Positions 24,901 to 27,900 of a DNA stretch of 31,691 nt are shown here, piece by piece (within the stretch, counting starts at the first letter, position 1; each line of letters opens with the position of its first letter). The position numbers are program-made. The stretch lies in the IMG/VR virus record IMGVR_UViG_2778261559_000026, one strand, 5' to 3'. The stretch is from a virus. Lineage: Duplodnaviria > Heunggongvirae > Uroviricota > Caudoviricetes.

Positions 24901-27900
24901 TCAGTTTCTCTTCCAGATAATTCCAACGGTCAACCAGTTGGCGAGTAAATTCCGGTACGTTTTGAGCAATCAAGACAATCGAATCTAAGCGACCTTGCTC
25001 ACCCTCAAACACATAATCTTTAACAGTAACAGCAAACCCTAAGTTATTGATTTTCTCGAAATTCTGCGTTGCAGGTTTTCGGATAACTTGGCGTTCAACC
25101 AGTCGGTTCATAGAAGTTTCAAGGTTTGAAAAACGAACTCCAATAAGGTCGGCAATTTCACGAAGAGTCATTTTTGCAACTTCGTTATCAACAACCAGAG
25201 ACACGGAAGCAGTTTTAACAGCAGTATTCATAGTAGTAACAGTATTCATAGTAGTAATTCCCCTTAAACGGTTTTGCGATAATGATATTGATCCTCCTAG
25301 TTCCGGCAGCATCACCGGAACAATTTTATTTATAAGAAGTTTTTATCTCATTTAGATTCAGCAATCGCGCGATCAATTTCTTCTTGAATGCGACGCTGGC
25401 GTTCATGGAAGTCAACCATTGAGAAATTCAGGTTTGGGGTCCACGGTTTGCGGTTCGGGTTTTTGCGTCCATCAATTTTCTTAGTAGTGTTCATAATTAA
25501 CATCCTCTTTACAGTTCTAGGTCAAATATGATCAAGGTTGTCAAGTGCGATGATCATAAAAAAGTAAGAAATTTTTGTCAATACACCTTGACAAGACACC
25601 AAAGGGTTGACCTAACTTACAGAATATCTAAGCCTTCATCGTAACCGTAGAAGCCATTCTGAGAAGAGAAACAGATTGGTGCGTAGTCGTCGTCATCTTC
25701 GTCTTGTTCATCTTCTTCTGGGGCTTCCTGAGCGGTTTCTTTACCGTAGTTAAACATTGCTTCATCCAGTTCATAGACAGTAACGAAGCTACCCAGGTCA
25801 ATGTCACCGGAACGGACTTCAAACGGAAGATCATCACGAACAATAATTGCTGGTAGATTCTGGTACTTTAAGCGTTCTTCATCGGTGAAGACGTTAACAA
25901 CAATGGTCGGCTTCTTATTACGGTGGAAGGCATACCATGCACTAGAGAAATGAGATTCATCAGAGTTGAAAAGAATGTTGTGACCACGTTCACGGAACAT
26001 CTTCATTAACTTGTCATTGTGGAAGCTATCAGCATCAAAACCTAACAGGATGAAAGGAGTAGTGGTAGTCATTTTATGGTTCATAGTGGAAATCCTCTAA
26101 AAGAAAGTGAATCAATCTAATATTATTTATAAAGAGAAAATTCTTGTTATTATGAAAGGTGATTGTATTCAGTCGGGCAAAGCCCTCCTTCATGATTTGA
26201 TTAAATCATCATCAAAACGAAGAAGTATCTTTAGAATATAAGAATCTTTCTTTTGGAGAAATAATAATCAGGAAGCAATTTAGCAACCGAAGGTTGCAAT
26301 CCCGAAGGGATACCAATACCTTTCTAGAAAGTGATTGTTACTCACTTCGTTCGTTTACTAGAATCAGTTAGTAACTAGTATTAAATCCCTTTCTAAGAAA
26401 ATCCTTTCAAAAGTGATTCTCGATGCCACGCAGTGGCGTCGCAGACGTTTGAGAGTGAGCGAAGCGAGCGAGCAAACTAGTTAATTCCTTCTAAGACCAT
26501 CTAGTATCATCTAGTTTAAATTAGTTGTTACTAGAAGTAATTGGTTAGCGCTTCGCGCAGTCGGGCAAAGCCCTCCTAATATCTTTTTGGTTATTTTTGG
26601 TTTTACACATGAGCGTAGCGAATGTGTTATATAATATCTATGCACGCCGAATCCCCCGCCCTTACCCCTACCTAATTTAATGTTTTATAAAGAGTTTTTC
26701 TCACCAATCCTTTTCGGGGGAAAATTTCAGGGGCAAAAATTAGATTTTCAGGGGCAATTATTGGCATTTCAGGGGCAAAAATGAGGGGCAAAATCACTGT
26801 TTCCCAGAAATTTCAGGGGCAAAAATAGTAGGTTTCAGGGGCAAAAATAGGATAGTAGAATCTTGGGATTTTGTTCGGGGGCAATTCCCATCAAATATTT
26901 TGATAGAAAATTATTGTATATTATTTAACCACAAAATCACCAAAAAGTGGTTTAAGCTAATGATTTAAAAGGAATAATCAAAAGGTCTCCGTGCCATAAT
27001 AGGTTATAAAGGTTGATAATCCTAATCTACCATTTTCAAACAAAAATTTTGATAGTCACCTCTCGCTTAGATCATGTGTGTTGACATGTGTCAAGAACTA
27101 TTTTATGCTTTTTATCACTGGTAAGGGTTGAAATTTTCAAAACAATCCCCATATAGATGATAAGCATGATTTTTTCGTGTATAAATACATGCATGAAAAA
27201 TGATTGTTCACTTCTGAAAATCTCCTGACTCACTGTTAACTCATACAGCACTGGTTAGATATGCAGTGCTTTTTTCGGTTGAATATTGTACGGATTGATT
27301 AATTATTAATCTTCTCTTTAGCAATTCGTGCTCCCACTGATCGGATATACAGTGGTTTTGCAGGGTTTTTCGAAAAACATTTTATAAATAGAATTGTTCA
27401 GAGCGAAAAGCTCTTTTTTAAGATTTTTTAAACCTAACAATGAGGGATTAAAAATGGCTAAACCTGTACGATTCACACGAGAAGTATTACTCCCGATTGC
27501 TAAACGTTATTTTGAAGCGATGCAGGGTGACAAGCTGGCGGTTTTGAAGGAAGAAGGGATTGACCCCTCTGATTTTAGAAAACTGCTAAAACGATATGAC
27601 ATTAAAGTGAAGATTGAAGCTACCGTTTGGTAATCAACTTTGACTGAGAATTATATGATGGCTTTAAAAATAAAAAAGCCCCCTTGCGGCAACAAGGAGG
27701 CTTTTGCGATGAACAATTAAAACTAACTTTCCACAGGAGTATTTATAATGTTATTTTCCGCTAACTTTTTCACTAACGAAGTAACCAACGCTAAAGCAGT
27801 TATCAAATTTGGCACCGAAGCAAACAAGAAGATTCAGCCGAAAGTTGTTGCTCATGTTTCCTTTGCGCAGCAGAAATCCGCTTTCGCTGGCTTTAAAGCA

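What the first reader, a model, noticed from the sequence alone, without database searches (positions are those of the whole stretch)
27081..27453. Consensus-like promoter followed by three hairpins before the 59-aa and 318-aa genes
TTGACA-17-TATGCT is followed by hairpin plus T6 at 27247-27276, a second CACTG/CAGTG hairpin at 27334-27360, and a third hairpin plus T6 at 27400-27420 right before the RBS. This resembles a late-promoter and terminated short RNA arrangement (as with lambda 6S RNA and Q antitermination) or an attenuator, and implies downstream expression needs antitermination.
Basis: partly seen in the sequence, partly recalled or inferred. Interest (0 to 1): 0.6.

Follow-up and report, generated by a model that had tools for sequence, protein, structure and literature searches.

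The report
Prophage early-operon control leader with terminators
The flagged stretch is the real, conserved control region in front of two early genes of an unstudied E. coli prophage, holding stacked promoters (normal, heat-shock type and a phage-specific box) and two terminator-like hairpins, but it is not a lambda-style late-gene switch.

Summary
Two + strand terminator-like sites in 344 nt compare with 0.014 in shuffles.

The lambda PR'/6S/Q reading does not hold. The downstream genes are a 59-aa helix-turn-helix protein and a ~320-aa protein whose N-terminal type matches the upstream iteron type 1:1 in 39 contexts. That protein is probably the origin-binding initiator. No late genes follow and no Q- or N-like protein was found.

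The segment 26885-27420 is an exchangeable leader cassette with at least three types.
- A sigma32-type promoter, TTGAAA-N13-CCCCATAT (27128-27154).
- A family-specific TATAAATA box (27180, 27383). The box also precedes four other non-structural genes and a predicted antisense RNA.
- A hairpin plus T-rich run 34-38 nt before the small gene's ATG, with a different stem sequence in each type.

Best reading: a multi-promoter leader whose upstream transcripts are attenuated at H1 and H3. H3 may also be the 5' hairpin of the proximal mRNA. The termination logic is plausible but its mechanism is unproven.

This is a new variant of a known kind, of moderate interest.

The parts
26712..26886 (.). Iteron array TTTCAGGGGCAAAAAT (6-8 copies at 21-22 bp spacing), directly upstream of the leader cassette
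   Evidence: The iteron type co-varies 1:1 with the N-terminal type of the ~320-aa protein in 39 distinct contexts (other types).
26885..27420 (+). Exchangeable leader cassette (type 1); homology to relatives breaks at both ends
   Evidence: BLAST mosaic pattern. Many relatives lose homology just after the H3 T-run. Type 2 is shown, type 3 (L189).
27081..27109 (+). Sigma70-type promoter TTGACA-17-TATGCT (TATACT in most relatives); the -35 lies inside the palindrome TTGACAtgTGTCAA (27081-27094); predicted start near 27116
   Evidence: A homologous promoter is present in type 2.
27128..27154 (+). Sigma32 (heat-shock)-type promoter TTGAAA-N13-CCCCATAT; predicted start near 27162. In type 1 it overlaps the hairpin-capable segment 27121-27152 (HpA)
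   Evidence: It is the only exact match in the window. Its spacing equals that of the dnaK P1 scaffold in PMC10216364. It is present in 45 of 49 distinct upstream regions and in all three cassette types, including L189, where no hairpin can form.
27171..27200 (+). Hairpin HpB, with conserved loop UAAAUAC (UAUAAAUAC in 20 of 24 copies) carrying the first TATAAATA box (27180-27187)
   Evidence: Three stem haplotypes all fold. Compensatory changes G-U to U-A (4 sequences) and U-A to C-G (4 sequences).
27198..27216 (+). Invariant block AAATGATTGTTCACTTCTG (contains ATTGTTCA)
   Evidence: Invariant, apart from single changes in two copies at the last two bases, in the 24 copies.
27247..27275 (+). 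H1: 7-bp stem, 10-nt loop, T6 (T4-T5 in relatives); intrinsic-terminator-like
27310..27332 (+). 23-nt motif TCTTCTCTTTAGCAATTCGTGCT, shared by cassette types 1 and 2
   Evidence: 22/23 identity between types; invariant, apart from two single-copy changes at its 5' end, in type 1.
27334..27359 (+). H2: CCACTG-N10-CAGTGG plus T4; a 16/20 near-duplicate of H1 with weak structural support
   Evidence: CACTG/CAGTG occurs 6 times in the leader against 0.6 expected.
27383..27390 (+). Second TATAAATA box, 9 nt upstream of H3 and 63 nt upstream of the ATG
   Evidence: TTTTATAAATA is invariant in 24 copies while its flanks vary. The box is present in 37 of 38 distinct upstream regions. There are 7 boxes in the window, all non-coding, against 2.1 expected.
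27400..27420 (+). H3: AGAGC-GAAAA-GCTCT plus T6; terminator-like hairpin 34 nt before the ATG
   Evidence: The equivalent hairpins GAGCG/CGCTC (type 2) and GCCGTC/GACGGC (type 3) sit at the same distance from the ATG.
27454..27633 (+). 59-aa gene: small helix-turn-helix protein conserved in all relatives (47-100% identity); RBS GAGG at 27442-27445
   Evidence: Weak HTH_Tnp_1 hits only.
27666..27747 (-). Predicted leftward small RNA unit: TATAAATA at 27747-27740, stem 27705-27674, T6 tail; antisense to the 5' UTR of the 318-aa gene
   Evidence: Box and terminator are conserved, with different stems, in protein types A, B, C and L189. The + strand tail lacks a U-run in L002, L004 and L189.
27748..28704 (+). 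318-aa gene: orphan N-terminal domain, coiled coil and acidic C-terminus; inferred iteron-binding protein (probable replication initiator)
   Evidence: CAI 0.59, in the range of the tail tube (0.64) and capsid (0.51) genes.

Best explanation
The segment is the transcriptional control leader of the rightward early operon of an uncharacterised, roughly 30-kb temperate siphophage. The phage is integrated in E. coli hicB by a serine integrase. The operon encodes a 59-aa HTH protein and a ~320-aa iteron-matched DNA-binding protein that is probably the replication initiator.

The leader is a discrete, exchangeable cassette lying next to an iteron array. It stacks several promoter-like elements:
- A near-consensus sigma70 promoter (27081-27109).
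- A sigma32-type promoter 20 bp further on (27128-27154).
- Two copies of a family-specific TATAAATA box (27180, 27383).

It also holds two + strand intrinsic-terminator-like hairpins, H1 and H3.

Inferred mechanism: transcripts from the upstream promoters mostly stop at H1, giving non-coding RNAs of about 85-160 nt, or at H3. The strong upstream promoters are therefore attenuated before the coding region. H3 lies 9 nt after the proximal TATAAATA box and 34 nt before the start codon. It may therefore act both as that attenuator and as the 5'-terminal hairpin of the mRNA started at the proximal box.

Shown: the sequence elements, their conservation and covariation, the cassette structure, and the iteron-protein coupling. 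Inferred: promoter activity, termination, which polymerase form uses each element, and the function of the 318-aa protein.
For: Genome context: a complete prophage lies between hicB fragments. It has a serine integrase, tail, head and terminase genes on the - strand, and no recognised replication or repressor gene.

Cassette structure: window 26885-27595 is replaced in other relatives, and a break falls right after the H3 T-run.

Sigma70 promoter: conserved, and stronger in most relatives. It has a homologue in type 2, followed there by a second consensus promoter.

Sigma32-type motif: the only exact match in the window. It has the same spacing as dnaK P1. It occurs in 45 of 49 distinct upstream regions and in all three cassette types, even where no hairpin can form.

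TATAAATA box:
- 7 copies against 2.1 expected, all non-coding.
- Conserved upstream of the 155-aa gene in 34/34 distinct upstream regions, of p59 in 37/38, and of the Rha-like gene in 22/30, with 8 more reading CATAAATA.
- The box-then-hairpin layout is shared by p59 and the Rha-like gene.

Terminator-like hairpins:
- Two sites on the + strand against 0.014 in shuffles, none on the - strand.
- A compensatory pair in H1; G-U substitutions tolerated only on the + strand in H3 and HpA.
- An H3 equivalent with a different stem at 34-38 nt from the ATG in three cassette types.

Downstream genes: p59 is conserved. The p318 N-terminal type matches the iteron type 1:1 in 39 contexts, while the leader and p59 alleles reassort.
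Against: - No transcription data exist; every start and end point is predicted.
- H1 has an unusually large 10-nt loop. H1 and H3 are weak to moderate hairpins (dG about -10 and -7 kcal/mol), so termination could be inefficient.
- In L189 the T-run after the H3 equivalent is interrupted.
- The Rha-like gene has the same box-plus-hairpin layout without any U-run. H3 may therefore be mainly a 5' UTR hairpin rather than a terminator.
- TATAAATA lacks the -7 T of a sigma70 -10 element and has no consistent -35, so what reads it is unknown.
- The order of elements differs between cassette types. In type 2 the sigma32 motif and HpB lie next to H3; in type 1 they lie next to the sigma70 promoter. No single wiring diagram fits all types.
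- The function of p318 is inferred only. Its structure model was unusable (pLDDT 41) and its codon usage resembles that of an abundant protein.
Confidence: 0.5

Rival explanations
1. Lambda-type late switch: a constitutive late promoter makes a short terminated RNA like 6S RNA, and a Q-like protein loaded at the promoter lets RNA polymerase read through into late genes.
For: A strong promoter with a terminator-like hairpin about 160 nt downstream resembles PR'-tR'.
Against: The downstream genes are not lysis or structural genes, and the unit ends after 1.6 kb against a convergently transcribed gene. No Q-like family was found in any ORF. The structural genes are on the other strand, with their own upstream region.
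Confidence: 0.04
2. Processive antitermination of an early operon. Either an N/nut-like system, with H3 as a boxB-like hairpin, or a cis-acting put-like RNA (HpA plus HpB just after the promoter) makes polymerase resistant to H1, H3 and later terminators.
For: H3 is a 5-bp stem with a GAAAA pentaloop, the architecture I recall for lambda boxB, and its 3' arm plus tail reads GCTCTTT, which is boxA-like (comparison from memory). Two hairpins lie immediately downstream of the sigma70 start in type 1. Terminators lie between the promoter and the genes.
Against: The GAAAA loop is not kept in type 2 (GTTAA) or type 3 (ACCC). No neighbouring protein co-varies with the cassette type, and no N-like family was hit. 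HpA is better explained as a sigma32 promoter and is not a hairpin in L189. In type 2, HpA and HpB lie about 300 nt from the promoters, after the first terminator-like site. Nothing in the region reaches any Rfam family's threshold.
Confidence: 0.12
3. RNA-based immunity or copy control, working like P4 CI RNA, P1 c4 RNA or plasmid countertranscripts. The short RNA ending at H1 (or at H3 in type 2) would be a trans-acting regulator, and the exchangeable cassettes would be immunity types.
For: No protein repressor is recognisable. The cassette types reassort independently of every neighbouring protein. The leaders are strongly structured, with z = -2.6 for type 1 and -5.4 for type 2. A separate, well-supported antisense RNA unit sits before the 318-aa gene, so RNA control is used at this locus.
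Against: Duplex energies between the putative short RNAs and the translation-start regions of p59 or p318, or the rest of the leader, are no better than shuffles (P 0.16-0.80). Nothing reaches the Rfam C4 family or any other Rfam family threshold. The RNAs predicted for types 1 and 2 are not homologous in content.
Confidence: 0.1
4. DNA-level elements rather than RNA structures. The CACTG-N10-CAGTG units (H1, H2) and TTGACAnnTGTCAA would be operators for a dimeric DNA-binding protein such as the 59-aa HTH protein. Alternatively the hairpins would be single-strand initiation signals of the adjacent origin.
For: H1 and H2 are 16/20 identical including their loops, as expected for repeated binding sites. 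CACTG/CAGTG is about ten-fold enriched in the leader. H2 shows no compensatory change. The region adjoins an iteron array. The leftward consensus promoter also carries a TTGTCAA-N6-TTGACAA palindrome.
Against: T-runs follow H1 and H3 on the + strand only. G-U-type substitutions are tolerated on the + strand only. The H3 equivalents keep structure and position but not sequence across cassette types. CACTG units are absent from type 2 although the same p59 alleles occur with both types.
Confidence: 0.15

Closest known systems
Lambda PR early operon (PR - cro - tR1 - cII - oop antisense RNA - O/P)
   Same: A rightward early promoter is followed by a small HTH protein gene and then the origin-binding initiator. 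A short leftward antisense RNA with its own terminator sits between the small gene and the initiator gene, like oop. Initiator N-domain and iterons co-vary among relatives, as I recall for lambdoid O proteins.
   Different: Here the terminators lie before the first gene, not after it. The iterons are outside the initiator gene. No N/nut system or CI/Cro-type immunity region is recognisable. The promoters include a sigma32 type and a TATAAATA box. No sequence homology.
Lambda PR'-6S RNA-tR'-Q late switch (and StxS-type short RNAs)
   Same: A strong promoter is followed by a terminated short transcript of roughly 160 nt.
   Different: There are no late genes downstream and no Q gene. The layout is not conserved between cassette types.
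Mini-F ori2/repE (iteron replicon whose initiator gene needs sigma32) and P1 RepA
   Same: An iteron array sits next to the gene for its cognate binding protein, with a heat-shock sigma promoter upstream. The sigma32 dependence of repE is recalled from Wada, Imai and Yura 1987 and was not checked here. The chaperone dependence of RepE, RepA and lambda O-P is stated in PMC8215388.
   Different: The 318-aa protein has no detectable similarity to Rep_3-type initiators. A 600-nt leader and a second gene lie between the iterons and the gene. The element is an integrated phage, not a plasmid.
Transcription attenuators and leaders of plasmid rep genes (pT181 repC, pIP501 repR) with countertranscripts
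   Same: A terminator hairpin sits just upstream of the ribosome-binding site of the first gene of a replication operon. A short antisense RNA is present at the locus.
   Different: The predicted antisense RNA overlaps the 5' UTR of the second gene, not the leader. No antisense promoter or - strand terminator lies inside the leader.
T4 late promoters (TATAAATA read by gp55/gp33/gp45)
   Same: An identical 8-bp box, with no consistent -35 element. The inferred starts lie about 6 nt downstream; one box sits exactly 5 nt before an ATG that lacks a Shine-Dalgarno sequence.
   Different: No gp55- or gp33-like gene was detected; there is a single weak PF16805 hit at E = 0.029. The boxes precede non-structural genes of a temperate siphophage. 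Whether any polymerase uses them is unknown.

Membership tests
Lambda PR'/6S RNA/Q antitermination module | Q-family antiterminator gene in the element | tested here: not met
   Pfam and PHROG scans of the ORFs outside the main head and tail genes gave no Q, N or other antiterminator family. Several ORFs remain of unknown function.
Lambda PR'/6S RNA/Q antitermination module | Lysis and structural (late) genes downstream in the same orientation | tested here: not met
   Downstream are the 59-aa HTH gene and the 318-aa gene, then a convergent 184-aa gene. The late genes lie at 3785-23163 on the - strand.
Lambda PR'/6S RNA/Q antitermination module | Terminator 150-200 nt downstream of a constitutive promoter, giving a short RNA | tested here: met
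   By sequence only: H1 ends about 160 nt after the predicted start.
Lambda PR'/6S RNA/Q antitermination module | Q-binding element and sigma70-dependent promoter-proximal pause | not testable with these tools
   Needs biochemistry. No clear -10-like repeat stands out in the first 20 transcribed bases on reading.
Intrinsic (Rho-independent) terminator | G+C-containing stem-loop followed directly by a U-run on the transcribed strand | tested here: met
   H3 meets the tool's criteria. H1 meets them except for its 10-nt loop. Both are + strand only. Termination efficiency was not measured.
Sigma70 promoter | TTGACA / 17 bp / TATAAT-like hexamers | tested here: met
   10/12 in the window and 11/12 in most relatives; conserved. 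Activity was not tested.
Sigma32 (RpoH) promoter | CTTGAA(A) at -35 and CCCCATnT at -10 with the dnaK P1 spacing | tested here: met
   TTGAAA-N13-CCCCATAT at 27128-27154. The dnaK P1 scaffold CTTGAAG-N13-CCCCATTT and the -35 consensus CTTGAA are given in PMC10216364. The motif is conserved in three cassette types. RpoH dependence was not tested.
Lambda N/nut site | boxA followed by a boxB hairpin with a GNRA-like pentaloop, plus a cognate N protein | tested here: not met
   H3 has a 5-bp stem and GAAAA loop, but the loop is not conserved in other cassette types. No N-like protein was found and no protein co-varies with the cassette.
HK022 put RNA | Two conserved stem-loops directly downstream of the promoter, acting in cis | tested here: inconclusive
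   HpA and HpB sit there in type 1 only. They are relocated in type 2, and HpA is not a hairpin in L189. Function is not testable here.
P1 c4 / P4 CI immunity RNAs | Match to the described RNA family, and complementarity to target sites in the same operon | tested here: not met
   Nothing reaches any Rfam family threshold. Duplex energies are no better than shuffles.
Iteron-type replication origin with cognate initiator | Array of direct repeats at helical spacing, next to the gene of a protein whose specificity domain co-varies with them | tested here: met
   Repeats at 21-22 bp spacing. Four iteron types pair 1:1 with four N-terminal types in 39 contexts. Binding and replication function were not tested, and the protein has no similarity to known initiators.
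T4-type late promoter | TATAAATA box plus gp55/gp33-type factors | tested here: inconclusive
   The box is present and conserved. No gp55- or gp33-like gene was found beyond one weak hit at E = 0.029.

The most novel reading that the evidence does not exclude
The TATAAATA boxes match the T4 late-promoter consensus. They precede nearly every non-structural transcription unit of this prophage, including the proximal promoter of the flagged operon. On this reading they are read by the late-transcription machinery of a superinfecting T4-like phage. The prophage already carries a 385-bp stretch about 95% identical to RB49-like Krischvirus genomes. It would then use the boxes to sense T-even superinfection and switch on its own replication or escape genes.
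Probability: 0.05. Interest if true: 0.85.

Novelty: new variant of a known kind. Interest (0 to 1): 0.5.

Why it matters
The prophage family is in roughly 1% of complete E. coli genomes (59 of 5426, assuming the two sets do not overlap, by the two leader types alone). It has no close sequenced phage in the collection searched (best terminase match 43% identical). It has no recognisable repressor or replication gene either.

Its control region therefore offers three things:
- A tractable entry to how such a phage decides to replicate.
- A natural set of swappable promoter and leader cassettes.
- A conserved heat-shock sigma promoter that would link prophage early or replication gene expression to host proteotoxic stress.

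The four matched iteron-protein pairs are a ready-made specificity series for an orphan DNA-binding domain.

Tried and rejected
- Rfam at gathering thresholds and at E up to 10: no credible family.
- Structure prediction of the 318-aa protein: pLDDT 41, unusable, so no fold search was run.
- Two large protein searches returned almost only near-identical E. coli hypothetical proteins.
- The exhaustive HMMER search found only 3 full-length relatives, including one near-identical representative, plus repeat-protein noise.
- PDB profile search: coiled-coil hits only.
- Species-representative genomes held no relative of the 318-aa protein.
- The 17-mer CTTTAGCAATTCGTGCT gave chance hits there.
- Literature search for a hicB-integrated prophage led to an unrelated LF82 paper.
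- Test for a protein co-varying with the leader type: none among eleven neighbouring genes.
- Trans-complementarity of the putative short RNAs to translation-start regions: not above shuffles.
- Search for further TTGACAnnTGTCAA operators: none.
- Small ORFs in the leader (23 aa on +; 59 aa and 52 aa on -) were rejected as coding. Indels among relatives shift their frames, or homology ends within them.
- A dedicated sigma70 promoter for the 318-aa gene was looked for by eye between 27634 and 27747. None was convincing.
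Full report
**Setting**

The window holds a complete prophage of about 30 kb, inserted in hicB.
- ydcR lies at 1-822 (-) and the hicB fragment at 31341-31691 (-).
- A serine integrase lies at 2537-3949 (+).
- Tail, head, portal and gpA-type large terminase genes lie on the - strand from 3785 to 23163.
- A 7-kb region of small genes lies at the right end.

No repressor, replication protein or antiterminator family is recognisable. No close sequenced relative exists in the phage collection searched; the best large-terminase match is 43% identical. Relatives sit at the same chromosomal site in E. coli. The leader type found here is in 32 of 5426 complete genomes, and a second type is in 27.

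**The observation**

- TTGACA-17-TATGCT lies at 27081-27109.
- H1 is AGCACTG-N10-CAGTGCT followed by T6 (27247-27275).
- H2 is CCACTG-N10-CAGTGG followed by T4 (27334-27359).
- H3 is AGAGC-GAAAA-GCTCT followed by T6 (27400-27420). It lies 34 nt before the ATG of the 59-aa gene.

Sigma70-like matches in general are no more common here than in shuffles. This one, however, is conserved in 24 distinct copies and is TATACT (11/12) in 22 of them.

With loops up to 10 nt allowed, the 344-nt leader has two + strand terminator-like sites. Shuffles give 0.014, and the - strand has none. Pair counts on the 24-copy alignment show:
- one compensatory A-U to G-C pair in H1;
- an A-U to G-U change in H3 in 11 copies;
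- no compensatory change and three broken cells in H2.

H2 is a 16/20 near-copy of H1, loop included.

1. *The segment is a cassette.* BLAST of the 1.7-kb intergenic block against 19 relatives shows that window 26885-27595 is replaced by unrelated sequence in many of them, while both flanks stay homologous. In other relatives homology stops right after the H3 T-run. Type 2 is shown. A third type, in the more distant locus L189, is shown.

2. *There are two more hairpins in type 1.* HpB (27171-27200) has three stem haplotypes that all fold. Two of its pairs change on both sides. Its loop core UAAAUAC is conserved in all 24 copies (UAUAAAUAC in 20 of them).

3. *HpA is better read as a promoter.* HpA (27121-27152) carries TTGAAA-N13-CCCCATAT.
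   - This is the only exact match in the window.
   - It has the spacing of the dnaK P1 sigma32 scaffold, and fits the -35 consensus CTTGAA, both given in PMC10216364.
   - It occurs in 45 of 49 distinct upstream regions and in all three cassette types.
   - In L189 the flank reads CCCCTTGAAA and no hairpin can form.

4. *The box TATAAATA occurs seven times in the window.* Shuffles give 2.1, and all seven copies are in non-coding DNA.
   - It is kept upstream of the 155-aa gene in 34 of 34 distinct upstream regions.
   - It is kept upstream of the 59-aa gene in 37 of 38.
   - It is kept upstream of the Rha-like gene in 22 of 30, with eight more reading CATAAATA. The flanks diverge in all three cases.
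   - In the finding, one copy is the HpB loop (27180). The other (27383) lies 9 nt before H3.
   - The Rha-like gene has the same layout, TATAAATA-aAATTGTTC-hairpin, but with no U-run after the hairpin.
   - One box lies exactly 5 nt before an ATG that has no Shine-Dalgarno sequence (29394, - strand).

5. *H3 is conserved in structure and position, not in sequence.* In each cassette type a G+C-rich hairpin followed by a T-rich run lies 34-38 nt before the small gene's ATG. The stems are AGAGC/GCTCT, GAGCG/CGCTC and GCCGTC/GACGGC. This is the strongest evidence that H3 is functional.

**The downstream genes**

The 59-aa protein is conserved in every relative (47-100% identity). It reads as a small helix-turn-helix protein; database hits are only weak HTH_Tnp_1 matches.

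The ~320-aa protein has a variable orphan N-terminal domain, a coiled coil and an acidic C-terminus. Relatives carry four different iteron families at the position of the window's TTTCAGGGGCAAAAAT array. In 39 distinct contexts the iteron family matches the N-terminal type of this protein one to one. The leader type and the 59-aa allele lying between them reassort freely.

That pattern argues for a functional pairing. I infer that the protein binds the iterons. Given the absence of any other replication gene, it is probably the origin-binding initiator. Its codon adaptation (CAI 0.59) lies between the tail tube (0.64) and the capsid (0.51). That is unusual for an initiator and remains unexplained.

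The large hairpin between the two genes is a - strand terminator.
- Its T6 run is on the - strand.
- In L002, L004 and L189 the + strand tail has no U-run.
- A - strand TATAAATA box sits just before the large gene's ATG in protein types A, B, C and in L189.

This predicts a 65-75-nt antisense RNA over the 5' UTR of the large gene, in the manner of lambda oop or plasmid countertranscripts.

**Interpretation**

The lambda late-promoter/6S/Q model fails on gene content and on the absence of a Q-like gene.

What the evidence supports is a multi-promoter leader for an early, probably replication-related, operon. It holds sigma70, sigma32-type and TATAAATA elements, with terminator-like hairpins that should stop much of the transcription from the upstream promoters. 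H3 sits where it could be both the last attenuator and the 5' hairpin of the mRNA begun at the proximal box. A short RNA ending at H1 is plausible. It would be about 160, 115 or 85 nt long, depending on the promoter used.

Which polymerase form reads TATAAATA is unknown. The box equals the T4 late-promoter consensus (from memory), but no gp55- or gp33-like gene is present.

Rival models were weighed:
- N/nut- or put-like antitermination.
- RNA-based immunity.
- Operator or origin functions for the palindromes.

Against them:
- No neighbouring protein co-varies with the cassette type.
- The boxB-like GAAAA loop of H3 is not kept in other cassette types.
- The putative short RNAs show no complementarity to the translation-start regions beyond shuffles.

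Everything about activity is inferred from sequence. The experiments listed under next steps would settle it.

**Verdict**

This is a new variant of a known kind: a phage early-operon leader with attenuators next to an iteron origin. Its unusual features are the conserved sigma32 promoter, the family-specific TATAAATA box and the cassette exchange. Interest is moderate.

Noticed in passing
window 26712-26886; L002 3843-3990; L004 3845-3997; L028 1223-1476: Four unrelated iteron families occupy the same position in different relatives. Each pairs 1:1 with one N-terminal type of the ~320-aa protein in 39 distinct contexts, although the leader and the 59-aa gene between them reassort.
   Followed up: yes
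window 27666-27747 (- strand): Predicted small antisense RNA: a TATAAATA box immediately before the 318-aa gene's ATG, reading leftward to a strong - strand terminator. It is conserved, with different stems, in several protein types and in L189.
   Followed up: partly
window 2033, 25327, 26124, 27180, 27383, 27740, 29400: TATAAATA, identical to the T4 late-promoter consensus, occurs 7 times. All copies are non-coding, and most are co-oriented with and closely upstream of non-structural genes. What reads the box is unknown.
   Followed up: partly
window 30323-30709 (inside the LprI-like gene 30329-31108): About 385 bp are 94-96% identical at the DNA level to RB49-like T4-type phages (Krischvirus). 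This implies recent gene exchange between this temperate phage and virulent myophages.
   Followed up: no
window 25553-25600 (- strand): Near-perfect leftward sigma70 promoter TTGACA-17-TATGAT (11/12) upstream of the 51-aa and Rha-like genes. It is preceded by the palindrome TTGTCAA-N6-TTGACAA and followed by further TTGACA/TTGACC copies, which may be operator half-sites.
   Followed up: no
window 23855-24112 (+) and 27454-27633 (+); L189 1368-1971: The 85-aa protein shares the motif (G)RPxxFxRE ... GIxxxxFYKxL with the 59-aa protein. The prophage therefore carries at least two paralogous small HTH proteins, and L189 has two such genes directly upstream of its leader.
   Followed up: no
window 29215-29394 (- strand): The 59-aa membrane-like ORF has no Shine-Dalgarno sequence, and its ATG lies exactly 5 nt after a TATAAATA box. 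Relatives have TACTAAATA at the same spacing. The mRNA may be leaderless.
   Followed up: partly
window 26170-26189 and 26558-26577; 26315-26410: A perfect 20-nt direct repeat CAGTCGGGCAAAGCCCTCCT, 388 nt apart, contains a GGGC-AAA-GCCC hairpin. Repeated AATCCCTTTCTA-like units lie in the left half of the 1.37-kb non-coding region.
   Followed up: no
L022 2351-3406 (C-terminus of the type-B protein): The C-terminal tail ...NYSAYAYAA is expanded to a long (AY)n run in one relative. This is repeat-length variation at the end of the iteron-matched protein.
   Followed up: no
window 6050-6823 (- strand): A homing-endonuclease-like ORF (PHROG 314, E = 4e-25) sits among the tail genes.
   Followed up: no
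window 27748-28704: The 318-aa gene has CAI 0.59, second highest in the prophage after the tail tube gene. This suggests an abundant protein, which is unexpected for a replication initiator.
   Followed up: partly
window 27204-27210, 27393-27399; - strand at about 25320 and 27710: The heptamer ATTGTTC recurs shortly after four of the TATAAATA boxes. Its complement, GAACAAT, lies in the 5' UTR of the 318-aa gene.
   Followed up: no
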